Assembly: GCA_964342465.1 (NCBI GenBank)
Contig: CAYFFQ010000001.1
Span: 279,691-343,690 of the forward strand
Direction of reading: 5' to 3'
From: an uncultured Candidatus Poseidoniales archaeon
Lineage (GTDB): Archaea; Thermoplasmatota; Poseidoniia; Poseidoniales; Thalassarchaeaceae
Length of the DNA stretch: 64,000 bases
Shown: one piece after another, positions 41,909 through 61,760 of the stretch
Numbering within the stretch: the stretch's first letter is position 1
How the letters are laid out: each line of letters begins with the position of its first letter
Made by a program: the position numbers and the translations under genes
The notes under the pieces: model-generated
Told to the model about the DNA's origin: nothing
Seen by the model: the letters and a program-made list of their open reading frames with translations, nothing else
Database searches by the model: none

Positions 41909-41978
41909 ACTACATCGGTCCACCCGACCAAACCATTGAATGTGTATGGGTGGCGAGCAGAGAGGGGGAGGTGTAGGG

Positions 41979-44498
41979 ATGACGTCAGTGAAGCCGGGTG
42001 TGCAGGAGCGAATCCTTCTACATCTGCGGGACTATGCCGACTATACCGAGAGGGTAGAGGTGCCCTTCGCTCTCTCCCAGATGGGAATAGCCAATGCAGT
42101 GGCCATCGCTCGCAGCAATGTCCCGCGCGCCATCGCTGGCCTCAAGGACAAGGGACTGTTGATTGAAAGACAGACTCATGTCACCGGTGTGACCCGCAAG
42201 CGGAAGGCCTACTTTCTGACCAGCCCTGGAATGACCGTTGCTGACGAGACTTGGGAGCGGCTCTCTTCGCATCCGCTACGAGTCATTTCCGAAGATGGAG
42301 CAGTGCAACACACGACACTTTCAAACGCCATAGAGACCACTCCGTTCACGATTCGTGCAGTTGACATTATCCGCTATATGGATGACAACGGCTTGGTCGA
42401 CCTACGCTCTCTCAATCCGGAATTGATTGAGAGGGATCTTTCCAAACATGTTGAGAAGCAACTCGTCACCTCATTGGAAGACCTGCCGAGAATCCGCAGT
42501 TTCTATGGGCGAGGAAATGAATTGAAAACGATGGTCGACCTTCTGGATGCTCGTTCGACCACAATCCTAGTCCCCGGTATCGCCGGTATAGGAAAGACCG
42601 CTCTCGCTGGAAAACTCATCGAGACCTTCACCCACAAGAGGAATCTTTTCTATCACCGAGTGCAGGATTGGGAGGGCTCACGCGCCTTCTTAGAGGCACT
42701 GAGCGAGTGGCTGGCAGCAATCGGAAATGATTCGTTAGCCACATATCTGTCTGTTACACCCGTTCCGACACCTCAGATGGCTGTTGACTTGGTTGTCGAC
42801 TCACTCGCAGATGTTCCAGCACTGGTAATAGTAGATGACCTGCACAAAGTAGCGGATGAGATTCTCTACGCGGTGATTCGCGGTCTCACCCAACGGATGG
42901 ACGACTTGGATGAGACGGGGCTCATTCTCTTCTCTCGCTCATTCCGGACAGTCGTTCCCCTCAAGGACGCAGAAGGGAAGATCACCACCCTCGTGGTACC
43001 ACTAGACGGGCTAGACAGAGAGGCGTGCAGAAACCTCCTCCCCTCCTTGGAACCTGTGGACGAGGTGACGTACCAACACATCTACGGACTTTCGCGAGGA
43101 CACCCTCTGGTCTTGGACCTCATTAACAGAGGTTCAATTGGAACGACATTCTATGAAACGCTGGAGATGTATGTGGAGAAGGAGATTTTCTCTAAACTAT
43201 CAGGCGGAGAGAAGCGTCTTCTCGGCGCCATAGCGGTGTTCCGTGAACCGATGCCACTTGAGGCACTGAGTGGCCATGACCTAGAGACCGACCTGTTGGA
43301 TGGTCTGGTGGAGAAGGGACTTGTTCGGCTTGCTGACTCGGAGATGTACGATGTTCACGACCTCATAAGAGAGTTCATGACTCGCTCGATTGACGCGGCG
43401 ATGCATACTGAATTGCACGCCCGTGCCTGTGAATGGTATCGGATGCGTCGAGAGCGGCCTGAACATCGGATTGAGTTTCTCTACCACCTGTCACATACCG
43501 GCGATTCGGACGAGTTGGGGACGGAATTGGCTGAAACCGGTGCGGAACTGGTCAACTCGGGTCATATGGAACTATATGCGACTCTTGACCATGTCTCGCG
43601 GGACGATGTGACTGATAGCACCTGGCCGGTCATCTTGGAATTGAAGGCCAATATCCTCTCAATGCAGGGTAGATGGGATGAGGCTCGAGACGATTACAAC
43701 GAGGCCATCGAGATGCTCTCTTCTTCGCGTAAGGATGAACTGATGAGAGCTAGAATCAAATCGAGCCTCGCTGATATTTCCGTGACTCAGGGCAACGCCG
43801 AGGAAGCACTCGCATTGCACAAGGAAGCACTCGAGTCCTTCATCAAACTCGATGACCCGCGCGGGGCAGCGAGAACATACAACAACATGGGCTACATCTA
43901 TCGAAGGTTGAGAGATGATAAACTTGCCATGGAAGTCTATGAGAACGTTGAGGGGCTCCTCGATTCCGAGCAGGACCCTGAACTGGTGGAATCGCGTATC
44001 AAGTTGGCGTCGGCTCTGTTGGAGATGGGAGATTCCGAGAGAGCGAAGGAACACGCCTTCAAGTCGTACGACGAGACCAACGAAGGGGATGATGCTGGAT
44101 TGGCGGCGCGCGCCCGCGCCGTGTTGGGGCGGTATTACTCTAAGACCGGCGACTCCGAACTCGCTCTTCACCACTACACCGAAGCGCTGGCGGGACTCTC
44201 AGAGGAGAGTGATAGTCACGCCGAAGTCGAAATCACCCTGCTGCTCGGTGAAGTTCTCGTCGATGCCGGCCGCAGAGAGGAAGCGATGGACTGCTATCGT
44301 GATGCACTGATGTTGGCCGAGTCGAACGACTACCGCATGCTCATCGGTGAACTGCTCGCTCGCCTCGGCGAGGCTGCTCCTGACAGAAGTCGGCGAATGG
44401 ACTACCTGCAGCGTTCACTGACCGTCTTCAGAGAACTGGGTGCGCGTGAGAGAATGCGGGACATTCAGACCAAGGTCCACCGCGCCTTGATGGGATGA
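41979..44498 (+). CDS. wHTH - STAND/AAA-type P-loop NTPase - TPR regulator
   Basis: GGAGGTG (41967-41973) lies 5 nt before ATG 41979. The N-terminal winged-helix-like segment is LSQMGIANAVAIARSNVPRAIAGLKDKGLLIERQ. Walker A is ILVPGIAGIGKTALAGK and Walker B is ALVIVDDLHKV. The C-terminal third is TPR-like (ARTYNNMGYIYRRLRDDKLAMEVYE, ELALHHYTEALAG, EEAMDCYRDALML). Confidence 0.8.
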   Translation: MTSVKPGVQERILLHLRDYADYTERVEVPFALSQMGIANAVAIARSNVPRAIAGLKDKGLLIERQTHVTGVTRKRKAYFLTSPGMTVADETWERLSSHPLRVISEDGAVQHTTLSNAIETTPFTIRAVDIIRYMDDNGLVDLRSLNPELIERDLSKHVEKQLVTSLEDLPRIRSFYGRGNELKTMVDLLDARSTTILVPGIAGIGKTALAGKLIETFTHKRNLFYHRVQDWEGSRAFLEALSEWLAAIGNDSLATYLSVTPVPTPQMAVDLVVDSLADVPALVIVDDLHKVADEILYAVIRGLTQRMDDLDETGLILFSRSFRTVVPLKDAEGKITTLVVPLDGLDREACRNLLPSLEPVDEVTYQHIYGLSRGHPLVLDLINRGSIGTTFYETLEMYVEKEIFSKLSGGEKRLLGAIAVFREPMPLEALSGHDLETDLLDGLVEKGLVRLADSEMYDVHDLIREFMTRSIDAAMHTELHARACEWYRMRRERPEHRIEFLYHLSHTGDSDELGTELAETGAELVNSGHMELYATLDHVSRDDVTDSTWPVILELKANILSMQGRWDEARDDYNEAIEMLSSSRKDELMRARIKSSLADISVTQGNAEEALALHKEALESFIKLDDPRGAARTYNNMGYIYRRLRDDKLAMEVYENVEGLLDSEQDPELVESRIKLASALLEMGDSERAKEHAFKSYDETNEGDDAGLAARARAVLGRYYSKTGDSELALHHYTEALAGLSEESDSHAEVEITLLLGEVLVDAGRREEAMDCYRDALMLAESNDYRMLIGELLARLGEAAPDRSRRMDYLQRSLTVFRELGARERMRDIQTKVHRALMG

Positions 44499-44560
44499 AC
44501 CGTCATGCTTCTGTGGGGTGAGACCATCCTTCATCTGTCACCATTCGGGGTATCTCTGTT

Positions 44561-44620
44561 CAAGTGCTCAACAGTTCTCCACTCAAGTAGTTCCGTCCAA
44601 GTGCTCGATAGTTCGCCACT
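44561..44620. repeat. 23-bp direct repeat x2 (20/23), period 37 bp, in a convergent gap
   Basis: CAAGTGCTCAACAGTTCTCCACT (44561-44583) and CAAGTGCTCGATAGTTCGCCACT (44598-44620). The second copy overlaps the TAG stop (44619-44621) of the 158-aa pilin-like gene. Confidence 0.75.
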
Positions 44621-45095
44621 AAAACCCGGGTTGGGAGGTGCGGATGGTGATGTTTCCACCCTGTGAGGTCACCCAGACCTGTTTAATCCCCGCCAATTCG
44701 ACTTCCCCTGAGTGATGCGTACTCCCAGTGCCAGAGATTGAACGAGTGGCACTCATTCCTCCCGATTTATCCTGCATCAACAACTCCTCGTCGTCAAGTA
44801 GCATTCTGAACTCCATGTTGACCGCTCCTGACAAGAGCAGGTCCACAGGCTCGGCGTAGGTGACATTTCCATCAAGACGGCTGGCACTCTCGGCTCTCTC
44901 GACTGCTGCAGCGACAGAGTCGAGATTCTCCTCCATCGCCTGTTCCATCCACACCTCACCTCTCGCATCCTGCATCTGCCAAGTTACAACGCTGAAGAAC
45001 GACATGAAGGAGAGCCACATCAGGAATGTCAGAACATATCCGAGTTCGGTTGCCGCTGCGTTATCGTCTCTGACGAACTCCTTTACTCGCCTCAT
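44619..45095 (-). CDS. small pilin-like protein (class III signal-peptide-type N-terminus)
   Basis: 158 aa. The N-terminus MRRVKEFVRDDNAAATELGYVLTFLMWLSFMSFFSVV has a basic-acidic leader followed by a ~22-aa hydrophobic helix. Its ATG overlaps the upstream stop (ATGA, 45092-45095). Confidence 0.65.
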   Translation of the reverse strand: MRRVKEFVRDDNAAATELGYVLTFLMWLSFMSFFSVVTWQMQDARGEVWMEQAMEENLDSVAAAVERAESASRLDGNVTYAEPVDLLLSGAVNMEFRMLLDDEELLMQDKSGGMSATRSISGTGSTHHSGEVELAGIKQVWVTSQGGNITIRTSQPGF

Positions 45096-47302
45096 TCTGT
45101 CACCTCGGTTGTGATTGAAATCTGACTGAGTTGCAAATTGAATTGAATCTGTTCACCGCTGGCATGGTAAATCGCTTCAGGGCTGGAGTGGGTCAGTTGC
45201 ACCCACCCCACATAGTCTGTCAGCAGGTCAACCTGACCGGGGAAGGTGAGCCAGTCGGAAGAAAAGGCCAGTTCTCTAGCTGCGTCGGCGGCTATGGCTG
45301 CACCATAAGGTCCATCCCAGCCGCGGCGGATTTCGTGGGCTTGCAGGGAGGCGAGTTGTTCTCTGAGGTCCAACCTGACAGTCATCTCGATTTCACTGCT
45401 CCCCATCGCATCTCCACTGTTTGGCATTGTTAGGGGGATGGTTGCCGCAAGACGGGGGCCCGGTCCCTCTCTCGATGGTGGCTCCTTTAGGACATCGGGC
45501 TGATACTCGGGATGATTGGTGCCGACGAAACCACCTCTGAATCCTATCTCCATTCCAGAGACAGAACTCTCAAATCGGTAATTCAACCGTGGAAGATGGA
45601 TACCCCAACCTGTTGCCAGTGTGGAGTGTGGGGCTGCCTCTTGTGGGCCGAGCACCGAGACCTCCAACCCCAACGGGTGACTGCCATCGAACCACGCCAC
45701 TCTCGCTTGAGAATCACTGGAGAGAGAGAGGTCTGTCCACGGTAGGTCAAGAAGCACCCAACCGGATGCCCAACCTGATATCGGTTGGCACCTCTCCTTG
45801 CCATCGTGTGCGACTTCCATCAACCCGTCATCACCACTCTGAACGATAATTCTGAATGGGGCATCTTTGAGCGCGTCACTTGAATTGACCGCTGTTCTCA
45901 CCAAAGTCGAGATAGGTGAAAGAGTTCTCGTGGTGCTTGTCTCTGAATCATTGAAAATGACCTGAGGAGACTCTCCTACATTCAGGTCTGTGAGAATCGT
46001 CAAACTCGTCTCCGGTGCTGCCGGTTGAATCAGAAGAATCTCGTCTCCAGTGGAAGATGGAGTTGAGAAAATGTGACTATGCCCGCTCGCTCGGCCGCTG
46101 TCCTGTGCAGGAACCACTTCCAAGGAACCACTTCTGCTGCTGCCAGTAGACTGCTCGGCTAGCCAATGGACGGTCACGGGTCCCGTTGAAGTGATTTGTT
46201 TTCCGACTCCACCCCAGTTGATTCGGGTCATCCCCTGAGCGGGAACCGTGTTGTATAGGCCATCGATTTTCACCGCCACCGATGTGGTGGCGCTGTTCTC
46301 GACCATAATGCTTCCACCAGCACCCGGAAGCGTGTGGGTGATGCCGATGCCACTTCCACCGTCATCAGGCCAGACAGTGGCCCCTGTGCCGTTCCCCCAC
46401 ACCATCAGCAGGCGGCCATCAGAGCTAGATTCGAGGTTTAGCACATCACCCTGTGCAGCATTGAATTGGGTGGACCAAGATGGCACAGAACCGCTGCTGA
46501 ATCCGTCGCCGGATGCTGAACCAGCGGCCCAAGTCACAGTGGCGAGCACATCTGTCTGGAGGTGAAGCGACACCCCTCCCTGTGGGAGTGGAACAGTCCA
46601 GGACCTGCCCTTTCCGTCTACCGAGTCAGCCCCTATCGGAGAGACGATTGTCGCACCACTGTTCCCTCTCAGGAAGAGCACTTTGAGGGGGGTGGTCGAG
46701 GTGAGCCAACTGTTCCCAGCCGTGTTGCTCTCGAGAGTTTCGCCTTGTCGCAGATTGAAAGTCTGACTGCTGGTTTCGTTGGCGAGAACCACTTCACTCT
46801 CCCACAACGATTGTTGGAGGGTTGAGATCGGTGTGGCTATGACCTTGCCACTTGTCAGGGGGAGTCGATAATTCCACTTGGCAAGACTGCTCGCCCTAAG
46901 GTCACTGAAACAGACCGATGAGGTTTCACCACTCGGGTATCTGATTCTGGCAACATCATCCAAATCGAGAAGGTCGTCGAAGCGTAATGAGGTTCCCGGT
47001 GAATATGTGGTGGTGTACCATGTACCTCCTCTAGCGAAATCCCAATCCAATTCGCCGCGGTGCGGGTGAAGCGGTATTGTCGCCTCTTCACCCGGCACTC
47101 CAGTTTCAGAGAGGCGTACGGTTTCCTCGACGAGGTCTAGCATCTGACCGGCCATCGCCTGCCTTTCGATAGAACCGTGTTTCTCCTCAATGACGGGGAT
47201 GATAGTGACCATCATCCCAGAGATGATGGTCAGCACTCCAGCGAACAGCAGAACCGTGGCGATAGCGGCTGACACCGCCTCCTCATCCATTCTTCTGCGC
47301 AT
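45092..47302 (-). CDS. large (736 aa) pilin-like protein with class III signal-peptide-type N-terminus
   Basis: MRRRMDEEAVSAAIATVLLFAGVLTIISGMMVTIIPVI resembles the archaeal type IV pilin N-terminal domain (consensus ..RAVSPVIGVILLVAITVILAA). The rest is S/T/G-rich with no other TM. Its start shares 1 nt with the upstream stop (TGATG at 47300-47304). Confidence 0.7.
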   Translation of the reverse strand: MRRRMDEEAVSAAIATVLLFAGVLTIISGMMVTIIPVIEEKHGSIERQAMAGQMLDLVEETVRLSETGVPGEEATIPLHPHRGELDWDFARGGTWYTTTYSPGTSLRFDDLLDLDDVARIRYPSGETSSVCFSDLRASSLAKWNYRLPLTSGKVIATPISTLQQSLWESEVVLANETSSQTFNLRQGETLESNTAGNSWLTSTTPLKVLFLRGNSGATIVSPIGADSVDGKGRSWTVPLPQGGVSLHLQTDVLATVTWAAGSASGDGFSSGSVPSWSTQFNAAQGDVLNLESSSDGRLLMVWGNGTGATVWPDDGGSGIGITHTLPGAGGSIMVENSATTSVAVKIDGLYNTVPAQGMTRINWGGVGKQITSTGPVTVHWLAEQSTGSSRSGSLEVVPAQDSGRASGHSHIFSTPSSTGDEILLIQPAAPETSLTILTDLNVGESPQVIFNDSETSTTRTLSPISTLVRTAVNSSDALKDAPFRIIVQSGDDGLMEVAHDGKERCQPISGWASGWVLLDLPWTDLSLSSDSQARVAWFDGSHPLGLEVSVLGPQEAAPHSTLATGWGIHLPRLNYRFESSVSGMEIGFRGGFVGTNHPEYQPDVLKEPPSREGPGPRLAATIPLTMPNSGDAMGSSEIEMTVRLDLREQLASLQAHEIRRGWDGPYGAAIAADAARELAFSSDWLTFPGQVDLLTDYVGWVQLTHSSPEAIYHASGEQIQFNLQLSQISITTEVTE

Positions 47303-48330
47303 CAGTAGACCTCCACCGATTGCAGGGTGACATGTAGTGATATCCGCTCACCCTGTGGGTGAACTGTGATGCCGTCAAGGCCGGATAGCCGACCTGTCGG
47401 CCCGAATCCTTGGTATTGACCGATAGCCCCACCAGCGAGGTAGATGTTGTAGTCACCACTCCAATGGTTGATGTATTGCGGCTCAATCACCGATTCTGTG
47501 GCTACATCGAACTCAACGATGAGATTCCTCGCCTCACCGTCAAACAGGCTCTTCTGACCACCTGAATCGATGTGGATGTTGGTCATCTGACTGCGTGATG
47601 TGGTGGTGATATCGATGTCGAGAAGAACCAGTGACACCCGTGCTGTGCCGTTGAGTAGCAGGTCTGTGGAGAAGCGAGGGAATTGTTGCACACTTATCGC
47701 CTGTCCGGGAAGTTGTTCATGGCGCGCCCCATTGACCAAGTCCACTTCGTAATTGCCTTCCGCAAGCCGGTTGTTCAATTGGACACCGTCGAGGCTAATC
47801 TCAACGAACCGGTGCGAGGTCGCTCCGAAGATGTCTTCTACATCGACGACGACATTGCCCTGAAGATTGGAGAGGGTGAAGTTTCCGCTGCCGTTGTTCA
47901 GCGAGAAGGTCTGAGTGGTATTATCATCGGTGACATGTATGCGAGCAGCAGTTCTGTTGATGCTATCTACCGTGAGTTGATTGCCAGACAACTCTACAGT
48001 GGTTCGGTCAACTCCCGCGAGACCGGCCTGAATCGTCCAAGTTTCGGCGTTCCTCAGCGGATGGATGGAGCGAGAAACCACGGAGTTATGTTGCACGACG
48101 CCGGTCCCATCGGGCGACTGGGCGACAATCAGAATTCTGTCGTTCAATTGCGTAGCAGCGACAGAACTCGATGACCAGACACGATTGTCATCTATATCCT
48201 CCATGAATGGCATGACGAGGACGAAGACCCCACCAGTGACGGCCACCACCATCGCCAACAGCATGGTGACACCGAGAATCTCGCTGACCGCATCGGCCTC
48301 GCCCATCTCCCTGCGCCTCACGGCACACAC
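47302..48330 (-). CDS. pilin-like protein (about 342 aa) with class III signal-peptide-type N-terminus
   Basis: ..VRRREMGEADAVSEILGVTMLLAMVVAVTGGVFVLV matches the AVS..I.GV pilin N-terminal pattern. The likely start is GTG 48330 (GAGGTGG at 48342-48336, 5-nt spacer). The ORF is open to TTG 48366, and ATG 48306 is also possible. Confidence 0.7.
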   Translation of the reverse strand: MCAVRRREMGEADAVSEILGVTMLLAMVVAVTGGVFVLVMPFMEDIDDNRVWSSSSVAATQLNDRILIVAQSPDGTGVVQHNSVVSRSIHPLRNAETWTIQAGLAGVDRTTVELSGNQLTVDSINRTAARIHVTDDNTTQTFSLNNGSGNFTLSNLQGNVVVDVEDIFGATSHRFVEISLDGVQLNNRLAEGNYEVDLVNGARHEQLPGQAISVQQFPRFSTDLLLNGTARVSLVLLDIDITTTSRSQMTNIHIDSGGQKSLFDGEARNLIVEFDVATESVIEPQYINHWSGDYNIYLAGGAIGQYQGFGPTGRLSGLDGITVHPQGERISLHVTLQSVEVY

Positions 48331-48362
48331 TAATCCCACCTCTCTCTTATGGGTTGCCTTAT

Positions 48363-48382
48363 CCAACCGCTATAGCGGTTGG
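48363..48382. promoter_or_regulatory. perfect 20-bp palindrome CCAACCGCTA|TAGCGGTTGG with TATA centre
   Basis: It sits between the MBL stop (48432) and the first pilin-like gene, 33-52 nt upstream of GTG 48330. Confidence 0.45.
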
Positions 48383-48431
48383 TTCGATGTTCGTTGCAGA
48401 ACAACCGAAATCTCGTTAGTTGACGCACCAT

Positions 48432-49232
48432 TCATTGAGTCACTTTTTCCGCCTCACTTTGGCCGAGGAAATGGGAGAATTCCGGACCATCCTGCCTACT
48501 GATGGCCAAGTCGCCCCCGAATAATTCTTCAATCTCCAACAACACCTCGCTCTCAGCCATGTGTGGTGCGTTGTTCTGTGCCGAAAGGTGACAAAGTGTG
48601 ATGCTCCGAGTTTTGTCACTCACAGTGTTGGCCAGCAGTTCCGCTGTCTGCTGATTTGAAAGATGGCCTCCTCGGCTGGCGATTCTCTGTTTCAGCCGAT
48701 GCGGGTAGGGGCCATTCCAAAGTCGGGAAGCGTCGTAGTTTGACTCGATGGAGATGTGGACACACTTTGAGAGATGGCGCGCCAACTCATCATTCCATGA
48801 GCCGAGGTCGGTGACCACCGCCGCCCTCTCGCCTCTGTGGCTGGCGATGAATCCGACATTATCTGCGCCATCATGATTGACACTAACTGGCAGAACGGCG
48901 AGGTCATCTGAAATCTCAATCAGGTCCAGTGCCTCAAACAGTCGGCATTCATTGACTGGGTCAAGACCCATTCTCGCACAGGTCTCAAAATTGGCCTGTA
49001 TCGGCACACCCCACTTCCTCGATACGATAGTGGCGCCGGCAGAATGGTCGCTGTGATGATGGCTGATGAGAATCGCATCAAGGTCACTTGGAGACAATTC
49101 AAGCAGCCCCAATCTCTTCTCCAATTGCCTGCCTGAGAAGCCACAATCCAGCAGAACTCTCGTCTCCTCCGTGGCGAGAAGGGTGGCATTTCCCTTGGAG
49201 CCGGAACCGAGATGAGTAATGGACAGGGTCAT
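48432..49232 (-). CDS. metallo-beta-lactamase-fold hydrolase (YycJ/PhnP-like)
   Basis: N-terminal MTLSITHLGSGSKGNATLL, then HxHxDH motif ILISHHHSDHSAG, and later VNHDGADNVGF and GHLSN. The likely start is ATG 49232 (GAGGGGG 5 nt upstream). The ORF is open to GTG 49364, but the extension has no family-like sequence. Confidence 0.8.
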   Translation of the reverse strand: MTLSITHLGSGSKGNATLLATEETRVLLDCGFSGRQLEKRLGLLELSPSDLDAILISHHHSDHSAGATIVSRKWGVPIQANFETCARMGLDPVNECRLFEALDLIEISDDLAVLPVSVNHDGADNVGFIASHRGERAAVVTDLGSWNDELARHLSKCVHISIESNYDASRLWNGPYPHRLKQRIASRGGHLSNQQTAELLANTVSDKTRSITLCHLSAQNNAPHMAESEVLLEIEELFGGDLAISRQDGPEFSHFLGQSEAEKVTQ

Positions 49233-49353
49233 GGTGTCCCCCTCGCAGCGCGCCAGCACCTTGAACCACACCCCTCCTCCATGACGATTTTCACTATTCT
49301 CTAGAGTAGGTGTCGTAGCGCCGAAGCAACTCGCCTCATACCTATCAATCAGA

Positions 49354-49435
49354 GACATCCCCACGATTGGGAGTCTAGCGATTCACGCATCGGTTTTGGT
49401 CATCGGTGAAGGCGACATTCCGACGATTGGGGGTC
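49354..49435. repeat. 22-bp direct repeat x2 (19/22), period 60 bp
   Basis: GACATCCCCACGATTGGGAGTC (49354-49375) and GACATTCCGACGATTGGGGGTC (49414-49435), in the 426-bp divergent gap 49233-49658. Confidence 0.7.
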
Positions 49436-49612
49436 AAGAGACGATGGTGGATGGCCACGATGTTTCCGTCCAATAAAATACATTAGTTTCAAGATGGAAA
49501 TAGCGATGGTTAATCGTTATCCTGACCCTTTCTTCTTGTTCTCCAGATTTTGATTTTACAAGCGAAATGCTGCCGACACCTGTACGAACTGTGCTCCATA
49601 GGCATGATAAGG

Positions 49613-49627
49613 CAACCCAAAGGGTTG
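49613..49627. promoter_or_regulatory. perfect palindrome CAACCC-AAA-GGGTTG, 31 nt upstream of ATG 49659
   Basis: The core ACCCAAAGGGT is identical to 13446-13456. It is preceded by ATGATAA (49604-49610) and a T-rich box ATTTTGATTTTA (49547-49558). Confidence 0.4.
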
Positions 49628-49658
49628 AGATACCGCAGCGAATGCTGTGGGTGGACAC

Positions 49659-52600
49659 ATGCGCAGAAATCAGACGGTACTAATCATCACCTTGCTTCTC
49701 CTCAGCAGCCTCACATTCGTTTCGTGGACGCGACCCACATCCGAAGTCGATTCAGTTCATCCTGACGATACCACGGGTGAGGGGCCGCCTGTCACTGATA
49801 CCGACAAGGACACGATTCCCGACCTACACGAACAGATGTATAGTTCGGAACGAAATATCACCCTTGACGAGGTGATTTACACTATTCCGGGCCTTGATTA
49901 CCAAAATGCATCTGACAATGAATCAGATTTCGACCAAGACGGTTTGAACGCTCTAGAAGAGTATTGTTGGCCCTACGACCTGACCCACTGTTTCACCGAC
50001 CGCAAATCATTGACCGGTATTCCTCCCGAGGAGAGCGAGTCAGGGATGCGGGAGTTCCTCGACCCTCGACTGGGAGACACAGACGGGGATGGTTTGCCGG
50101 ACGGTTACGAGGTTTGGATGTGTATGCGCGAGAGCGGGGCCAAGAATGAATCGATGGCGTGGGAATGTGATGGATTTGACCCCCTTAATTCACAAGATGG
50201 GCATAACGATTCTGACCGATGCTGGGATGGGGAGATGGGCTGTGGAGATGGCTTCGATGTCGACCGAGATGGGGTTATAGAAGTTCATGAGTGGTACACC
50301 AATGCCGAAGAGTACAGTTATGGTGCTCCGGACAATTGGACGACCGAAATTCACGGGTTGAGATGTCTTGGGTTGATGGATGCCTGCGCTGACAATGTCA
50401 CCCGCCCAACCGGCTCAGATGGCTGGTTGGGAACTGACCCGCTGAGAAATGACAGCGATTTCTACTACTGGTCGGGCAGCAGGGAGTTGGCGAAGAGCGC
50501 GAGGGGGGATGCCATACCTGATGGTTGGGAGGTCTTCTTCGGATTGGACCCTCTCAATGAGAGTGACAGCCTTCTCGACAGTGATTTGGATGGCTGGGAC
50601 CTCGACCGCGACGGCATGGTGATGCCGGATGGCTCGAGGGCGACAATTCACATCGGTGAAGCCTATTCAAATCTTGAAGAGTACTACACATTCATCGACA
50701 ATGGCGCTTGGGTCATTTCCGGCTTGAAATCGACGATACTCGACGCGGTGGATGCTGATGTCAACTTGTACGACCAAGGCACCACCCCGTCCATCATGCA
50801 CCACGACATCCGCTCTCTCGTCGCTGATGAGAGCCTCGGTTTCATCTATGTCGCCACCAAGAGAGGAGTGACGATTCTTGACCCGGAGAGTGGTGGAAGT
50901 TGGGACCTCGCTCTGCCTCCCGGTGATGAATTGAACGAGATGATGATGTGGGAGGACCAAGGTGGCGAGAAGCGGCTCATACTTGCCACCGACAGTGGTG
51001 TCGAGGTGTGGACTTTGGCTGCTGATGGATTTCTCAATCCAGCCACTGCCATCAATGGTGTGGAAATCGGTTATGTCACCCATCTGACGCGGTTGCAGAC
51101 AGGGTCTGGAAATCTTGACCTGCTGGCCGCAGGCCCCGACTCGACGGCATGGACCATGACGATTGATGGTGCTGGCCAGGTGGGCGACCTGAGGGTCGCC
51201 GAGACTTTAGTCGAGGCACTGCAGGCGGAGAATGCCACCATCCAAACCACCGCGCAGGCTTCAGTGGATGGTGGTACGATGAAACTCTATGTGGGTACTG
51301 ACAAGGGATTCTTCGTCGCCAACACCGCCGATGCAACAGGTGATTTTCCCGCCCTGTGGATTTTCAATGAGACCGATGCTGAGGACTATGTGAGGCAGGC
51401 GAACCCACAGAACATCTCACACTCAGCCAATGTGCGCACTTTGGTGGTGGATGGGCCGAGGCAACCGGATGGTTCGCTCTCAAGCGCTCAGACCATTTGG
51501 GTCGGAACCGCAGGCGGAGTTCACCATTTTTCACTTCTCGATGAAGCAGACCCCGCAGTCGCCTTCAGCCGAGACAGAATGCAGAACGATGAGTTTGACC
51601 TACAGGGTGCCAATGATGTCCACGCCATTCTCCCCCTCGGCGAGGAGGTCTTGATAGGTTCTCGTTATGGGACTTGGGTGCTGGATGGAGACCATGCGAA
51701 ATCCCTCGGTGTTGATTCTGAGCAGACGAGAATCCCAGGATTCGTCACTGAACTGCTGGTCATGGAAGTGAATGGGGCGGAGACGGTCTTCGCTGGCTTG
51801 CACCCAGGCAAGTTCTCCAACAGGATGCTGATCAATCCATTCAGTAATGACTCAGACCTCGATGGGATGCCTGATGGCTGGGAAATCGCACATGGCCTAG
51901 ACCCGACAGACCCCTATGACAGAGACGAGGACTTGGATGTTGACGGCATCAACCTCAACCCCTTCACCGATGATCTGATAGACCACAACTGGACCAATCT
52001 CGACGAATACAGATACATCGCCAGCACGCCGGATGGGTGGAATGGTACAGACCCGAGGCTCGCAGACACCGATGGAGACGGTCTTCTCGACGGTGCCGAA
52101 TACTGGGGTTGGTTCTTTGATGAGACCAACTTCACCTGCCACTACGAAGTGGGTGAGTATGTCTGTGACCAGACGGCAGGTGACTTGGCTGCGCAGGTAT
52201 ATGCTGTCGGGTATCCCGGCACGCAGGCGAGTGGGGGTACGGACCGAACGACAGACCCCACAAACTCTGACTCTGATGGCGACGGTATGCCCGACGGTTG
52301 GGAGATCCTCAACCGAAGATGGTTAGGGACAGAGTTCCACGGCGGCAATGAGTGGTCGATGGACCCGAGAGACCCGACTGACGCATACGAAGATGCAGAC
52401 GGCGATGGACTGACCAATCTCTGCGAATATCAGTGGGAACTCCTGCTCCAAGATGTCCTTGAAAATGGACTTCCTTCACATGGCGAGAGTGCTGAAGCAG
52501 CTGTTGATTGGGTAAAGATTGACCCCAACAACCCAGACTCCGACGGTGATTCTCTGCCGGATGGGTGGGAATCGAGGTATTCGTGTTCATGGTCGGTCTC

Positions 52601-55391
52601 CAACATAGGAATCAATCCACTCAATGGGAGCGATGCACTTTCTAATCCGGATGGCGACGGCTATGATGTCAATCTCGATGGCAACATCAGCGCCGATGAG
52701 GAATTCAACAACTGGATGGAATATCACATCCAACACGCACAGGTGTTTGGCAACAACACCGATGATGGTACGCCCCTCCCTGAAGGATTCAGCACCGCTC
52801 TGTGGAATGCCACTTGGCTGTCCAGCGCCTCACGCCCCTTCGGAGAGTTTGCTTCACCGACCGTCACCGGCTCCGTTCCGGGGATGATTCTCGAAGACAA
52901 GGGTTCTGCCAACCCGCTTTCGGCAGACAGCGACGGCGACGGTATGCCTGATGGATGGGAGGTCTACTTCGCCCGCTGGGACGCATTTGACTCACTCTGG
53001 ACGCTTAATCCAGTCAACGAATCAGATGTCTTCCTCGACCCTGATGGTGACGGGATGACCAACTGGGAGGAATACAACTCCATCTCCGCAGTGAAGAGCG
53101 AAACCGATTCTAATCAGACTTCCCCACAATACCATCCTTTCAAGTTGGGCAACTCGATAATCCTCACTCCATGGGCAACGGCCTCTGGGACACCGTCGTT
53201 CGGAGCCTACCTCACACCCGAACAATACGCCATCTCCGGCCCGACCTGTGACCCCAACGACAGCGACACCGACAACGATGGTCTGCTCGACGGTATTGAA
53301 CTTCTGTTCACTCAGTGGAACTCCACCTTTGAAAATTGGACTCTGAACCCACTCGTCTCCGGCGATGGTGGTGCTGATGGTGACCAAGACGCGCTGACCG
53401 ACAGGCAGGAGTTGAACCTCACTTACGAGAACCCCCTCAATGGTGGACTGGCCCCTCCCGATGCCCCCAAGATGTGGGAGGAGGCATTTGGTCTCGAACC
53501 GGCCAACTTCACAAGTCGCCTTCAGTCCATACTCGACACCAAACTGGGTCGCGCCTACCTCGCCCTCGAACAACACTCCGAATGGGTGGTCACCGGAGTT
53601 CCCGGCCCTCTGCTATCCACCCTTATAGGAATCACTGACCCGACCAACAATGACACCGATGATGATGGGATGATTGATGGATATGAATATTGGTTCACCG
53701 AATGGGATTTGGACGACAACCGTTGGTCGATGAACCCGCTGACACAATCAGACATCGATGCGGACAGTGATGACGATTCCTTTGACTGCAATGAGGATGG
53801 AATCATCCAGATGGATGAAAGATACACCAATCTGCGCGAATACGAAGCGAGAATCTACGGCAAGGAATCACTCCGTTATCAATTCCCGCCCGGTTCAGGA
53901 TTGGTGGACTTCGGTGATGATGCGATTGATGCACAGATGGGCGAGAACGGACTCGATTTTTCACAAGCGAGAATGGCCATCGTCAATCTCTTCGCTGCCA
54001 AGGATGCGACCAGCGCAGAGCGGTTGAACAGAATCAACAGCGCTTGGCCTGACAACTTTAACCTCTCACTGTTCGGCATCTCCGACCCGACCCACCCTGA
54101 CAGCGACCTCGACGGGATGCCTGATGGCTGGGAATTCTGCTACGGTGTCTATGATGAGGTGATGCCGGTCAATGAATATCGCTGGACATTGAATCCCGTC
54201 AATCCACTGGATGTCGACTATGACCCTGACGAAGATGGATGGTTTGACAGAACTTCTGGAGATACGCCGGCCACACAGGGGAGGTGGTCCGACCATCAGT
54301 TCACTCCGGGTGGGGTGGATGACCAATATGCACCGGGTAACACCCCCCTCTTCTTCACCAACTGGATGGAGTACGACAACGGCACCCGGCCCGATAAAAA
54401 CGACACCGATGGAGATGCGGTCAACATGGTCAGGGTGGCGAATGCTGTTGATGATACGCTCACTGACGATTATTACCGAAGTTATGACCTCTCAGATGGA
54501 CGCGAGGTGTTCAAGTATGGTACTGACCCCATCGACAACGACACTGATTGGGATATGTTGCCAGATTGGTATGAACTGCACCACGGCTGGAACGAGAGCA
54601 ACGACAACTGGTCTAGTTACAAACAGGTTCAGGTGGTGTGGGAGCAATACTCCATCCTCGGCAACATCGCCATGCGACCACTACACGCCAACGGAAGTCT
54701 CCTCGAAAGACCTCTGCTGAACTATACATGGGTGACTTTCGACGCTACAGACCCATCTGACGCGCTGGATGACCCTGACATGGATGGAAATTGGGACTGC
54801 ACCAATGCTGGATGTACCTACACTCCATACAACAATTTTCAGGAGTTCTTCGGTCTGACCAATCAGTCGGTCACTTCAGCCAGCCTTGCTCGGGCTACAC
54901 CCATCACTATCGCTGGAACTGAACCACCTATACAGATAGTACCAGAGGAGTGGTGGGAACTTCGTAACGCTCTGCTGGCCAAGGGGCGAGCCAACGAGTA
55001 CGATTGGAATTATTTCAGGATGTACAGAATCAACCAGATGAGCGACCAACTCTACGCCTTGGTTATGAATGACCATGACTCCGACTACCTCACCATCAAC
55101 GGCAGCGACGACACACCAATTGTCAAGGGTGATTGGACTGCCGATTGGAACCGCGTGTTCGGTGACCAATATCACCTTCCCAACACCGGATTGGGAGAGA
55201 TGGTCTACGGTTGGTGGCTACTCGATATCGATGGCGACCAGATGGCCGACGGCACAGACCCTGTAAACTGGGACACCGATGGAGATTGGCTGAACGATTG
55301 GTTCGAGATTGAGAACGACATGTTGGACGGCATCAGGGGCAACGGACCTTCGCCCATCAGATACGATGACAGGACAACCAGTCCAAACTGA
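49659..55391 (+). CDS. giant secreted protein with about two dozen thrombospondin-type-3-like Ca-binding repeats and a central propeller-like region
   Basis: Signal peptide MRRNQTVLIITLLLLSSLTFVSW (ATG 49659; the ORF is open from GTG 49647). Repeats include DTDGDGLPDGYE, DSDLDGMPDGWE (x2), DSDGDGMPDGWE (x2), DPDGDGMTNWEE, DTDNDGLLDGIE and DTDDDGMIDGYE. The central region has VATKRGVTILD, LATDSGVEVWTL, YVGTDKGFFVAN, WVGTAGGVHHFSL and LIGSRYGTWVLDG. No C-terminal TM. Confidence 0.85.
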   Translation: MRRNQTVLIITLLLLSSLTFVSWTRPTSEVDSVHPDDTTGEGPPVTDTDKDTIPDLHEQMYSSERNITLDEVIYTIPGLDYQNASDNESDFDQDGLNALEEYCWPYDLTHCFTDRKSLTGIPPEESESGMREFLDPRLGDTDGDGLPDGYEVWMCMRESGAKNESMAWECDGFDPLNSQDGHNDSDRCWDGEMGCGDGFDVDRDGVIEVHEWYTNAEEYSYGAPDNWTTEIHGLRCLGLMDACADNVTRPTGSDGWLGTDPLRNDSDFYYWSGSRELAKSARGDAIPDGWEVFFGLDPLNESDSLLDSDLDGWDLDRDGMVMPDGSRATIHIGEAYSNLEEYYTFIDNGAWVISGLKSTILDAVDADVNLYDQGTTPSIMHHDIRSLVADESLGFIYVATKRGVTILDPESGGSWDLALPPGDELNEMMMWEDQGGEKRLILATDSGVEVWTLAADGFLNPATAINGVEIGYVTHLTRLQTGSGNLDLLAAGPDSTAWTMTIDGAGQVGDLRVAETLVEALQAENATIQTTAQASVDGGTMKLYVGTDKGFFVANTADATGDFPALWIFNETDAEDYVRQANPQNISHSANVRTLVVDGPRQPDGSLSSAQTIWVGTAGGVHHFSLLDEADPAVAFSRDRMQNDEFDLQGANDVHAILPLGEEVLIGSRYGTWVLDGDHAKSLGVDSEQTRIPGFVTELLVMEVNGAETVFAGLHPGKFSNRMLINPFSNDSDLDGMPDGWEIAHGLDPTDPYDRDEDLDVDGINLNPFTDDLIDHNWTNLDEYRYIASTPDGWNGTDPRLADTDGDGLLDGAEYWGWFFDETNFTCHYEVGEYVCDQTAGDLAAQVYAVGYPGTQASGGTDRTTDPTNSDSDGDGMPDGWEILNRRWLGTEFHGGNEWSMDPRDPTDAYEDADGDGLTNLCEYQWELLLQDVLENGLPSHGESAEAAVDWVKIDPNNPDSDGDSLPDGWESRYSCSWSVSNIGINPLNGSDALSNPDGDGYDVNLDGNISADEEFNNWMEYHIQHAQVFGNNTDDGTPLPEGFSTALWNATWLSSASRPFGEFASPTVTGSVPGMILEDKGSANPLSADSDGDGMPDGWEVYFARWDAFDSLWTLNPVNESDVFLDPDGDGMTNWEEYNSISAVKSETDSNQTSPQYHPFKLGNSIILTPWATASGTPSFGAYLTPEQYAISGPTCDPNDSDTDNDGLLDGIELLFTQWNSTFENWTLNPLVSGDGGADGDQDALTDRQELNLTYENPLNGGLAPPDAPKMWEEAFGLEPANFTSRLQSILDTKLGRAYLALEQHSEWVVTGVPGPLLSTLIGITDPTNNDTDDDGMIDGYEYWFTEWDLDDNRWSMNPLTQSDIDADSDDDSFDCNEDGIIQMDERYTNLREYEARIYGKESLRYQFPPGSGLVDFGDDAIDAQMGENGLDFSQARMAIVNLFAAKDATSAERLNRINSAWPDNFNLSLFGISDPTHPDSDLDGMPDGWEFCYGVYDEVMPVNEYRWTLNPVNPLDVDYDPDEDGWFDRTSGDTPATQGRWSDHQFTPGGVDDQYAPGNTPLFFTNWMEYDNGTRPDKNDTDGDAVNMVRVANAVDDTLTDDYYRSYDLSDGREVFKYGTDPIDNDTDWDMLPDWYELHHGWNESNDNWSSYKQVQVVWEQYSILGNIAMRPLHANGSLLERPLLNYTWVTFDATDPSDALDDPDMDGNWDCTNAGCTYTPYNNFQEFFGLTNQSVTSASLARATPITIAGTEPPIQIVPEEWWELRNALLAKGRANEYDWNYFRMYRINQMSDQLYALVMNDHDSDYLTINGSDDTPIVKGDWTADWNRVFGDQYHLPNTGLGEMVYGWWLLDIDGDQMADGTDPVNWDTDGDWLNDWFEIENDMLDGIRGNGPSPIRYDDRTTSPN

Positions 55392-55523
55392 ACCGCGCCA
55401 AGAAGAACCCACCTCAGAGTTCCCGAATCGGTTGTTGTTTTGGAGATACGATGCTGACCATCCCGTTGAGTTTTTTGTAGCCAGAAATTTGTTTTGGGTG
55501 GTGCTGGAAACTATGCATTGATA

Positions 55524-55540
55524 TCTGGCCTTAGGCCAGA
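55524..55540. promoter_or_regulatory. perfect palindrome TCTGGCC-TTA-GGCCAGA between two giant genes
   Basis: 7-bp arms with a 3-nt A/T centre. It lies 133 nt after the stop at 55391 and 67 nt before TTG 55608. It is followed by CACCAAAGGGG (55552-55562), a one-base-shorter version of the ACCCAAAGGG core. Confidence 0.3.
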
Positions 55541-55607
55541 GTCAACCGTGACACCAAAGGGGAGATTTCAAAGGTGGCGTTTGACTGTCCGAGCGGGAGG
55601 GGATGTC

Positions 55608-61259: not shown

Positions 61260-61358
61260 GTGGGTCAGCCCCTATCCCAACGGCCGAGGCTCAAAAGGAG
61301 CCTATCCTTCTATTGCCACCTCCATGTAGCCCACAACTCACTGGATACTCTCTACCTT

Positions 61359-61552
61359 GGTGGTCGGCGAGGAGTCTGCATCCGGCGTAGTTACCCCTCA
61401 TGGTGGTCAGTTAGAAGTCTCGATGACCGGATATTTTCCCTCATGGTCGCCGGCAAGGAGTCCGCATCCGGCGTAGTTACCCCTTGTGGTGGTCAGTTAG
61501 AAGTCTCGATGACCGGATATTTTCCCTCATGGTGGCCGGCAAGGAGTCTGCC
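61359..61552. repeat. 86-bp tandem repeat, ~2.25 copies, each unit an older 43-bp duplication
   Basis: Copies are at 61359-61444, 61445-61530 and a partial one at 61531-~61552. Each 86-bp unit consists of two 43-nt halves that both start GGTGGTC and end CCCTCAT. Confidence 0.85.
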
Positions 61553-61583
61553 CACCCCATGTCTCCTTGAGAATGCGTGGCGC

Positions 61584-61760
61584 GGTGTCACTCCACCCAA
61601 TATCCTTCGCCCAGCCCGACCCGCTGTGCCTTGCTACTCGCCGCCCCCATTACGGTGTCACTCCACCCAATATCCTTCGGCCAGCCCGACCCGCTGTGCC
61701 TTGCTGCTCGCCGCCCCCATTCCGGTGTCACTCCACCCAATATCCTTCGCCTAGCCCGAC
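61584..61760. repeat. 70-bp tandem repeat, ~2.5 copies
   Basis: GGTGTCACTCCACCCAATATCCTTCG.. starts at 61584, 61654 and 61724. The first two units are near-identical over 70 bp. Confidence 0.85.

What the first reader, a model, noticed from the sequence alone, without database searches (positions are those of the whole stretch)
44619..49232. Translationally coupled operon: MBL hydrolase plus three proteins with archaeal pilin-type N-termini, one of them 736 aa
Seen: there are four co-directional genes. The last three start with a basic/acidic leader followed by A-[VA]-[ST]-..-[IL] and a ~22-aa hydrophobic helix:
- ..VRRREMGEADAVSEILGVTMLLAMVVAV
- MRRRMDEEAVSAAIATVLLFAGVLTII
- MRRVKEFVRDDNAAATELGYVLTFLMWL
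Their stop and start codons overlap (TGATG at 47300-47304; ATGA at 45092-45095).
Established: this N-terminal pattern is the archaeal type IV pilin/class III signal peptide signature. Such subunits need a prepilin peptidase, an assembly ATPase and a platform protein.
Inference: the sizes (342, 736 and 158 aa) suggest minor or tip subunits, or a non-canonical filament, rather than a major pilin. The coupled MBL-fold enzyme (YycJ/PhnP-like, a fold used by nucleases) hints at a processing activity delivered with the filament. No assembly genes are in the window.
Basis: partly seen in the sequence, partly recalled or inferred. Interest (0 to 1): 0.7.

Follow-up and report, generated by a model that had tools for sequence, protein, structure and literature searches.

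The report
Pilin-like surface protein trio in Poseidoniales
Three overlapping genes of a marine group II archaeon encode previously unnamed surface proteins with type IV pilin-like N-termini. They are conserved across the whole order and probably form a small cell-surface complex; the neighbouring metallo-beta-lactamase-fold (MBL) enzyme is probably just a cytoplasmic neighbour.

Summary
On the minus strand lie an MBL-fold gene (48432-49232) and three genes whose stop and start codons overlap: P2 (47302-48321, 339 aa), P3 (45092-47302, 736 aa) and P4 (44619-45095, 158 aa).

- **N-termini.** Each of the three has a short K/R leader, an invariant small residue, then one hydrophobic helix. The motifs are kept in 71-74 species genomes: [AG]|VSEILGV, EEA|VSAAIATVLLF and AA|ATELGY.
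- **Family matches.** Orthologues give weak but consistent hits to Pilin_N, DUF7289 and DUF7266.
- **Structure.** AlphaFold gives helices of about 60 residues followed by all-beta bodies, with no match to a solved structure.
- **Distribution.** The P3 family is restricted to Poseidoniales (330 species genomes). Gene order was invariant in all 80 loci examined.
- **MBL gene.** It is not translationally coupled and has no signal peptide. A structure-conserved hairpin and a BRE/TATA-like element separate it from P2.
- **Assembly genes.** No ATPase, platform or peptidase gene lies in the window or within 10 kb of it. The literature reports that most MGIIb lack fla genes.

Best reading: a minor-pilin-like heterotrimeric surface complex, not a major filament. 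The reading that the MBL delivers a processing activity with the filament is not supported. It is a new member of a known kind, of moderate interest.

The parts
48432..49232 (-). MBL-fold metallo-hydrolase, 266 aa, cytoplasmic, with an HHHSDH motif. It is a conserved upstream neighbour, probably a separate transcription unit.
   Evidence: Pfam Lactamase_B 1.5e-14 and Lactamase_B_2 2.9e-13. All NCBIfam equivalogs fall far below their cut-offs. No hydrophobic segment. Orthologue starts fix the ATG at 49232.
48363..48382 (-). Perfect 8-bp GC-rich stem-loop (CCAACCGC-TATA-GCGGTTGG) between the MBL stop and P2.
   Evidence: Read and forms in the minimum-free-energy fold. At the same position in relatives there are hairpins with unrelated stem sequences. 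Perfect stems of at least 8 bp occur in 46% of loci against 0.7% of background windows.
48345..48357 (-). BRE/TATA-like element GCAACCCATAAGA, with ATAAGA 29 nt upstream of the P2 start codon. Inferred promoter of P2-P3-P4.
   Evidence: CATAAGA is invariant across the window and the 10 relatives aligned, at a fixed distance from the conserved start codon. A related CTAAGAA lies at -27 in L002.
47302..48321 (-). P2, a 339-aa pilin-like protein. Leader MRRREMGEADA, predicted cleavage before VSEILGV, one N-terminal helix, beta-rich remainder.
   Evidence: Alignment A2. The motif is present in 71 species genomes with -1 = A52/G19. DUF7289 hits in 15/17 orthologues and Pilin_N in 12/17, all weak.
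45092..47302 (-). P3, a 736-aa pilin-like protein. Leader MRRRMDEEA, predicted cleavage before VSAAIATVLLF, helix 7-67, then about 45 beta strands.
   Evidence: AlphaFold pLDDT 83, pTM 0.83. The motif is in 74 species genomes with -1 = A in 71. DUF7289 hits in 28/34 orthologues, two above the gathering score. FlaFind-type regex hit.
44619..45095 (-). P4, a 158-aa pilin-sized protein. Leader MRRVKEFVRDDNAA, motif ATELGYVLTF, helix 12-74, then a 7-strand beta domain.
   Evidence: Alignment A3. AlphaFold pLDDT 76. AA|ATE[LI]GY in 72/72 species genomes. DUF7266 hits in 6/18 orthologues, weak.

Best explanation
P2, P3 and P4 are a lineage-specific set of type IV pilin-like (class III signal peptide) surface proteins of a marine group II archaeon (Poseidoniales, Thalassarchaeaceae-like).

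**Shown**
- The three genes are translationally coupled.
- Each product has a short basic leader, a conserved Ala/Gly, one N-terminal hydrophobic helix that continues as a helix of about 60 residues, and a beta-rich body.
- The N-terminal segment is the best conserved part of each protein. It is homologous to the N-termini of archaeal pilin families.
- The trio is conserved in the same order in hundreds of Poseidoniales species.

**Inferred**
- The leaders are removed by an A24 prepilin peptidase.
- The coupled genes give roughly equimolar products whose N-terminal helices bundle into a heterotrimer. This would resemble the minor-pilin or pseudopilin cap of bacterial type II secretion and type IV pilus systems.
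- The complex either caps a short fibre or stays as a membrane-anchored stub. It presents the large beta-sandwich body of P3 outward for adhesion or ligand binding.
- It is not a major-pilin filament.
- The upstream MBL hydrolase is a cytoplasmic enzyme with its own transcript end. It is a conserved neighbour, not a component.
For: - **Coupling.** Overlapping stop and start codons in the window and in relatives.
- **Topology.** A single N-terminal hydrophobic segment in each protein.
- **Motif conservation in 71-74 species genomes**. The -1 residue is always A, G or S. K/R is always present in the 12 residues upstream. P2 and P4 keep a Glu at +3 of the predicted mature end, and P3 does not.
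- **P2 versus P3.** The two profiles are homologous only over the N-terminal 40 residues (hhalign probability 88.8%).
- **Pfam.** DUF7289 in 28/34 P3 orthologues; two exceed the gathering score, over profile positions 2-71 only. DUF7289 in 15/17 and Pilin_N in 12/17 P2 orthologues. DUF7266 in 6/18 P4 orthologues.
- **Distant relatives.** Three distant hits of the P3 profile share the first ~130 residues. They carry pilin-like N-termini with a small residue before the hydrophobic stretch: RA|VSPVIATILV, PA|VTPVVATILV and HA|VSVALATIMV.
- **Models.** Helix 7-67 plus all-beta in P3. Helix 12-74 plus a 7-strand domain in P4.
- **Distribution.** Relatives in 330 species-representative genomes, and invariant gene order in all 80 loci examined.
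- **MBL.** No signal or transmembrane segment. It is separated from P2 by a structure-conserved hairpin and a BRE/TATA-like motif.
- **Precedent.** Makarova et al. 2016 (PMC4858521) report that euryarchaeal pilin sets are often encoded apart from the ATPase/TadC genes, and that large all-beta minor pilins exist.
Against: - No prepilin peptidase, secretion ATPase or FlaJ/TadC gene lies in the window. None was called in the flanking stretches reached beyond either end, about 10 kb on one side and 4 kb on the other.
- Published surveys find fla genes only in MGIIa and a few MGIIb clades (PMC6336850, PMC6864105). The trio occurs throughout both families.
- The residue at -2 is usually not K/R (E/D in P3, variable in P2, A/G in P4). 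The strict FlaFind pattern fits P3 only.
- All Pfam hits for the window's own proteins are below threshold or absent.
- Foldseek found no solved pilin or archaellin similar to P3 or P4.
- Complex formation was not modelled.
Confidence: 0.55

Rival explanations
1. The three proteins are ordinary uncleaved signal-anchor (type II) membrane proteins. They form an ectodomain complex with no involvement of prepilin peptidase or type IV filament machinery. On this view the pilin-like N-terminus is an ancestral relic, kept for helix-helix packing in the membrane.
For: - No machinery genes nearby.
- The trio is present across MGIIb, where fla genes are mostly reported absent.
- The -2 position is atypical, and the strict FlaFind pattern fails for P2 and P4.
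- No structural match to solved pilins.
Against: - An invariant small residue sits exactly where class III cleavage occurs, preceded by a basic leader, in 71-74 species.
- The N-termini are homologous to those of Pilin_N, DUF7289 and DUF7266 families, and to distant relatives with pilin-like N-termini such as RA|VSP.
- The N-terminal helix is a continuous ~60 residues rather than a transmembrane helix plus linker.
Confidence: 0.25
2. The trio forms accessory or minor subunits of the archaellum, assembled by FlaI/FlaJ.
For: All MGIIa and some MGIIb carry an archaellum operon. Archaellins and pilin-like proteins can share one peptidase.
Against: - The trio is never next to fla genes in the 80 loci.
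- It occurs widely in Thalassarchaeaceae, including Thalassarchaeum/MGIIb-P genomes. Fla genes are reported only for a few MGIIb clades.
- No Arch_flagellin match.
Confidence: 0.1
3. One reading: a four-gene unit in which the MBL-fold enzyme is a nuclease or processing activity that works with, or is delivered by, a non-canonical filament. A competence-type DNA-uptake apparatus would be one example.
For: - The MBL gene lies upstream on the same strand in every locus where the flank is present.
- Weak generic hits to RNase Z, beta-CASP and ComEC MBL domains.
- Orthologues hit the Apyc1 model.
Against: - The MBL protein has no signal peptide or membrane segment.
- It is not translationally coupled to P2. 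A conserved hairpin and a promoter-like motif intervene.
- Every specific NCBIfam model is far below its cut-off, for example PhnP at 23.6 bits against 272.
- The whole ~30-kb neighbourhood is equally syntenic, so adjacency carries no specific signal.
- The one apparent MBL-P2 fusion (P0190) is frameshift-ridden.
Confidence: 0.05

Closest known systems
Archaeal type IV pilin-like proteins with class III signal peptides (Pfam Pilin_N PF07790; haloarchaeal DUF7289 PF23960 and DUF7266 PF23928)
   Same: Short charged leader, small residue at -1, about 20 hydrophobic residues, a long N-terminal helix and a beta-rich body. Weak but consistent HMM hits to the N-terminal region.
   Different: Only the first 60-70 profile positions match. 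The bodies have no Pfam domain and no structural relative. The residue at -2 is mostly acidic or neutral rather than K/R. The family is confined to Poseidoniales.
Euryarchaeal minor pilins encoded apart from the ATPase/TadC genes (for example arCOG02911, 250-550 aa, all-beta; Makarova et al. 2016, PMC4858521)
   Same: Large all-beta pilin-like proteins in small operons, remote from any assembly genes.
   Different: No sequence link to that arCOG was tested. At 736 aa P3 is larger. No cognate major pilin or ATPase has been identified here.
Bacterial minor pseudopilin tip complex GspI-GspJ-GspK of type II secretion and the type IV pilus priming complex (analogy, from my own knowledge)
   Same: Three co-expressed pilin-like subunits of graded size. 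The largest one lacks the conserved N-terminal Glu that the other two keep: P2 and P4 have E at +3 and P3 has A.
   Different: No sequence or fold similarity was detected. The Glu is at +3 rather than +5. Heterotrimer formation is untested.
Sulfolobus bindosome and class III signal peptide substrate-binding proteins (bioRxiv 10.64898/2026.04.22.720090)
   Same: Large non-filament proteins carrying class III signal peptides, proposed to be mounted on a type IV filament-type base. That paper also reports genomes with such proteins and a peptidase but no type IV filament locus.
   Different: P2-P4 have no substrate-binding-protein domain, and no ABC transporter gene is adjacent.
YycJ/PhnP/Apyc1-like short MBL-fold hydrolases (for the upstream gene)
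   Same: About 266 aa, HxHxDH motif, Lactamase_B and Lactamase_B_2 hits. Orthologues hit Apyc1.
   Different: No equivalog model reaches its cut-off. The best solved-structure match is a generic L1 beta-lactamase at 2e-6. The substrate is unknown.

Membership tests
Archaeal class III signal peptide / type IV pilin-like proteins | Short positively charged leader, small residue (G/A/S) at -1, then about 20 hydrophobic residues at the extreme N-terminus | tested here: met
   One N-terminal hydrophobic segment in each protein. The -1 residue is A, G or S, and K/R lies upstream, in all 71-74 species genomes.
Archaeal class III signal peptide / type IV pilin-like proteins | Strict FlaFind motif [KRDE][GA][ALIFQMVED][ILMVTAS]x3 in register with the hydrophobic stretch | tested here: inconclusive
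   P3 matches (EA|VSAAIA). P2 matches only in a register shifted by two residues. The window's P4 does not match. Some P4 orthologues (EA|AAATE) would.
Archaeal class III signal peptide / type IV pilin-like proteins | Significant match to a curated pilin N-terminal model | tested here: inconclusive
   The window proteins are below threshold: P2 against DUF7289 scores 17.6 bits against a cut-off of 27, and Pilin_N has E = 0.27. Two P3 orthologues exceed the DUF7289 cut-off (31.6 and 35.9 bits), but only over profile positions 2-71 of 238.
Archaeal class III signal peptide / type IV pilin-like proteins | Long N-terminal alpha-helix followed by a beta-rich globular domain | tested here: met
   P3 has helix 7-67 followed by all-beta (pLDDT 83). 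P4 has helix 12-74 plus 7 strands (pLDDT 76). P2 was not modelled.
Archaeal class III signal peptide / type IV pilin-like proteins | Fold similarity to solved pilins or archaellins | tested here: not met
   Foldseek against the PDB gave only generic beta-sandwich hits for P3, with TM-scores about 0.1. Nothing below E = 0.2 for P4.
Archaeal class III signal peptide / type IV pilin-like proteins | Leader removed by an A24 prepilin peptidase (PibD/FlaK/EppA) | not testable with these tools
   This needs proteomics or heterologous expression. No peptidase gene lies in the window or its flanks.
Type IV filament system (pilus or archaellum) | Cognate secretion ATPase and FlaJ/TadC platform in the genome | tested here: inconclusive
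   Absent from the 64-kb window and from about 10 kb and 4 kb of flank. The literature reports fla genes in MGIIa and only a few MGIIb clades.
Translationally coupled operon including the MBL gene | Overlapping or abutting stop and start codons between all four genes | tested here: not met
   P2/P3 and P3/P4 overlap. MBL and P2 are separated by a non-coding gap of about 110 nt that holds a conserved hairpin and a BRE/TATA-like motif.
PhnP / RNase Z / YycJ-type MBL nucleases | Score above the curated equivalog cut-off | tested here: not met
   RNase Z scores 31.1 against 293, PhnP 23.6 against 272 and aCPSF1 31.2 against 580. Only the superfamily-level Pfam models pass.

The most novel reading that the evidence does not exclude
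The trio is a pilin-derived surface complex that works without any type IV filament ATPase or platform. On this reading it is a core envelope structure of all Poseidoniales, including the many MGIIb lineages reported to lack fla genes. It could be the anchor or organiser for the giant adhesin-like proteins encoded beside it. That would be an exaptation of type IV pilin-like subunits into a static, machinery-independent cell-surface module in one of the ocean's most abundant uncultured archaeal groups.
Probability: 0.25. Interest if true: 0.65.

Novelty: new member of a known kind. Interest (0 to 1): 0.45.

Why it matters
Marine group II archaea are among the most abundant planktonic archaea and remain uncultured, so their cell surface is essentially unknown. 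This trio appears to be a near-universal, fast-evolving, order-specific surface module that has gone unnamed; every database label seen here is 'hypothetical protein'. If it is displayed on the surface, it is a candidate for particle or cell attachment and for virus recognition.

It also gives a concrete test case. Can class III signal peptide proteins function in lineages that lack a type IV filament assembly machinery? On its own, however, a pilin-like gene set encoded away from its machinery is a pattern already described for euryarchaea.

Tried and rejected
- **Foldseek, P3 against PDB and BFVD, P4 against PDB.** Only generic jelly-roll, lectin or tail-fibre beta-sandwich hits, with TM-scores about 0.1 or E above 0.2. 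Nothing can be assigned.
- **NCBIfam at E <= 1.** No hits for P2-P4 or three orthologues.
- **tblastn against the plasmid collection.** I used the N-terminal 140 aa of P3 and of a distant canonical relative, hoping for an annotated haloarchaeal context. No match.
- **Literature.** No paper mentions DUF7289, DUF7266, DUF7287, DUF7288, DUF7261 or DUF7262. The MGII papers I searched or read do not discuss pili or prepilin peptidases.
- **Walking the source contig.** The two window-edge proteins showed about 10 kb beyond one end of the window and about 4 kb beyond the other. No assembly genes were found there.
- **Apparent MBL-P2 fusion protein P0190.** Rejected as a frameshifted assembly.
- **Rfam.** Nothing in 44400-49700.
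- **Formal covariation count on the hairpin.** Abandoned because MAFFT could not align the unrelated stems. I used a background-frequency control instead.
- **Not done.** A genome-wide search for the peptidase, ATPase and platform was not possible with the caps and access rules.


Full report
**What is there**

The region 44619-49232 holds four minus-strand ORFs.
- An MBL-fold gene at 48432-49232. The longer ORF reaching 49364 is not supported by orthologue starts.
- P2 at 47302-48321.
- P3 at 45092-47302, 736 aa.
- P4 at 44619-45095, 158 aa.

The P2 stop overlaps the P3 start as TGATG. The P3 stop overlaps the P4 start as ATGA. The window is archaeal, since it carries a CDP-archaeol synthase. 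All named relatives of P3 are marine group II / Poseidoniales. The closest, at 58-65% identity, are labelled Thalassarchaeaceae.

**The N-termini**

Each of P2, P3 and P4 has exactly one hydrophobic segment, at its N-terminus; the MBL protein has none. Across six diverse loci and then 80 species-representative genomes, the segment around the start of the hydrophobic helix is the best conserved part of each protein.
- P2: [AG]|VSE[IV][LIM]GV.M[LM][LM]A in 71 genomes. The -1 residue is A in 52 and G in 19.
- P3: (E/D)(E/D)A|VSA[AV][IV][AG]TVLLF in 74 genomes. The -1 residue is A in 71.
- P4: AA|ATE[LI]GY[VI][FL]TF in 72 of 72 genomes.

All have K/R in the preceding 12 residues. A FlaFind-type pattern run over all six frames of the window found four hits. 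P2 and P3 were the only N-terminal ones. P2 matched in a shifted register and the window's P4 did not match, mainly because the -2 residue is not K/R/D/E.

Profile comparison shows that P2 and P3 are homologous only over these first ~40 residues.

Lenient Pfam scans of the orthologue sets give consistent hits, all confined to the N-terminus:
- DUF7289 in 28/34 P3 orthologues. Two are above the gathering score, but only over profile positions 2-71.
- DUF7289 in 15/17 and Pilin_N in 12/17 P2 orthologues.
- DUF7266 in 6/18 P4 orthologues.

An exhaustive profile search of 1.84 billion representative proteins found only 139 hits, about a dozen of them full-length clusters. Three distant proteins share just the first ~130 residues. 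They carry pilin-like N-termini with a small residue before the hydrophobic stretch: RA|VSPVIATILV, PA|VTPVVATILV and HA|VSVALATIMV. I take this as good evidence that the N-termini descend from archaeal type IV pilin-like proteins. It is not evidence that they are cleaved.

**Structures**

AlphaFold with a 34-sequence alignment gives P3 a confident model (pLDDT 83, pTM 0.83). It has one helix spanning residues 7-67, then about 45 beta strands and only two short helices. P4 (pLDDT 76) has a helix at 12-74 followed by a seven-strand domain. A continuous N-terminal helix of about 60 residues on a beta body is the general pilin architecture.

Foldseek, however, found no solved pilin or archaellin. 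P3 gave only generic beta-sandwich matches (vicilin, Cry toxin, GH101; phage tail or lectin-like proteins in BFVD) with TM-scores near 0.1. P4 gave nothing below E = 0.2. P2 was not modelled.

**Conservation and context**

Relatives of P3 are encoded in 330 species-representative genomes. The order MBL, P2, P3, P4, convergent HTH-AAA-TPR (STAND-type) regulator was found in every one of the 80 loci examined, wherever the flank existed. On one side lies a ~1900-aa protein. On the other lies a ~1480-aa protein. In the metagenome loci whose genes were listed, an S8 protease and a giant STT3-containing protein follow.

Because the whole ~30-kb block never rearranges, synteny cannot by itself tie the MBL gene, or any other neighbour, to the trio. 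P2-P4 diverge faster (32-65% identity) than the MBL (55-79%) or the regulator (51-88%). That fits surface exposure.

**The MBL gene**

It is a 266-aa MBL-fold protein with an HHHSDH motif. It passes only the superfamily Pfam models. Every specific NCBIfam model (RNase Z, PhnP, aCPSF1, ComEC) is far below its cut-off. The best solved relative is a generic L1 beta-lactamase at 2e-6.

It is not translationally coupled to P2. In relatives, 99-255 nt separate its stop from the P2 cleavage-site codon. In the window the gap contains a perfect 8-bp hairpin at 48363-48382. Relatives carry hairpins at the same place with at least ten unrelated stem sequences. Perfect stems of at least 8 bp occur in 46% of loci against 0.7% of random windows from the same loci. 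So structure, not sequence, is conserved.

Downstream of the hairpin, relatives at 53-65% identity share an invariant CATAAGA, within a conserved GCGAACCCATAAGA block. It lies 29 nt before a conserved start codon that reads M-R-R in most of these relatives. This looks like an archaeal BRE/TATA promoter driving a leaderless P2-P3-P4 mRNA; that is my inference. It also fixes the P2 start at the GTG at 48321.

A cytoplasmic enzyme with its own transcript boundary is unlikely to be 'delivered with the filament'.

**Assembly machinery**

No ATPase, FlaJ/TadC or A24 peptidase gene is in the window. This includes the ORFs that lack Pfam hits, which I rescanned at E <= 0.1. None was called in the flanks reached beyond the window ends, about 10 kb on one side and 4 kb on the other. 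I could not search the rest of the genome.

Published surveys report an archaellum operon in all MGIIa but only in a few MGIIb clades (PMC6461757, PMC6336850, PMC6864105). The trio is present throughout Thalassarchaeaceae, including Thalassarchaeum/MGIIb-P genomes. Its distribution is therefore broader than that of the only type IV filament machinery so far reported in the order.

Makarova et al. 2016 note that euryarchaeal pilin sets are commonly encoded away from their ATPase/TadC genes and include large all-beta minor pilins. A 2026 preprint reports many genomes with class III signal peptide proteins and a peptidase but no type IV filament locus.

**Interpretation**

The most likely reading (confidence about 0.55) is a three-subunit pilin-like surface complex made in fixed stoichiometry from a coupled operon.
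- The N-terminal helices would hold the subunits together.
- The large beta-sandwich body of P3 would be the outward-facing functional part.
- This is analogous to a minor-pilin or pseudopilin cap rather than a major filament.
- P2 and P4 keep a Glu at +3 of the predicted mature end. The largest subunit, P3, has Ala there. This recalls the bacterial tip subunit GspK, which lacks the conserved Glu. The comparison comes from my own knowledge and was not tested here.

The main rival (about 0.25) is that the leaders are never cleaved and the proteins are simple signal-anchored ectodomain proteins. Archaellum accessory subunits (about 0.1) and a four-gene unit that includes the MBL enzyme (about 0.05) fit the data less well.

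**Verdict**

This is an unnamed, order-specific member of the known class of archaeal pilin-like gene sets. Its interest is moderate. The value lies in its near-universality in an abundant uncultured group, and in the open question of how it functions where no assembly machinery has been reported.

Noticed in passing
window 48363-48382 (minus strand); same position in L011-L090: A perfect GC-rich stem-loop lies between the MBL stop and P2. Its structure is conserved across Poseidoniales, but the stem sequence differs completely between lineages. No T-run follows it. It could be a 3'-end, stability or processing hairpin; it has no Rfam match.
   Followed up: partly
window 48345-48357 (minus strand): The element GCAACCCATAAGA has its CATAAGA core invariant in relatives at 53-65% identity. 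It sits 29 nt upstream of the conserved P2 start codon. It looks like a BRE/TATA promoter for a leaderless mRNA.
   Followed up: partly
window 41940-44498 (+): An 852-aa regulator with HTH, AAA_16 (STAND-type NTPase) and TPR regions is convergent with P4. It is conserved in that position in every locus examined (51-88% identity). It may or may not regulate the trio.
   Followed up: partly
window 26327-35911 (+): A 3194-aa ORF whose orthologues carry an STT3 (oligosaccharyltransferase AglB-like) domain inside a giant protein. It is syntenic with an S8 protease and a ~1480-aa surface protein in the six metagenome loci whose genes were listed.
   Followed up: no
window 49647-55391 and 55494-61259 (+): Two ~1900-aa secreted-looking, very acidic proteins, divergent from the MBL gene. 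The one whose translation I read (49647-55391) is full of repeated D-x-D-G-D-G-x-P-D-G-W-E (thrombospondin type 3-like) motifs and carries 39 N-glycosylation sequons. A 164-aa ORF (61260-61754) starts right after the second one's stop.
   Followed up: no
window 2271-7214 (-): A 1647-aa protein with six lamin-tail domains followed by two PLD-like (phospholipase D / nuclease) domains.
   Followed up: no
P0358 (1205 aa) and P0359 (1600 aa): Distant relatives share only the first ~130 residues with P3 and carry pilin-like N-termini. The same giant proteins also contain repeated segments that look like Hint/intein domains (CF.SGTKVTMADGS...HN) and other repeated extracellular-looking segments. Both calls are by eye and were not scanned. 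Origin unknown.
   Followed up: no
P0190: A 491-aa database protein appears to fuse the MBL and P2. Its sequence is garbled by frameshifts, so it is an assembly or gene-calling artefact, not a real fusion.
   Followed up: yes
L039 and L070 (same MAG, SRP077602_co4_142): Two different P3 copies (41% and 39% identity to the window) sit on two contigs of one MAG. This is either a mixed bin or a rare paralogue.
   Followed up: no
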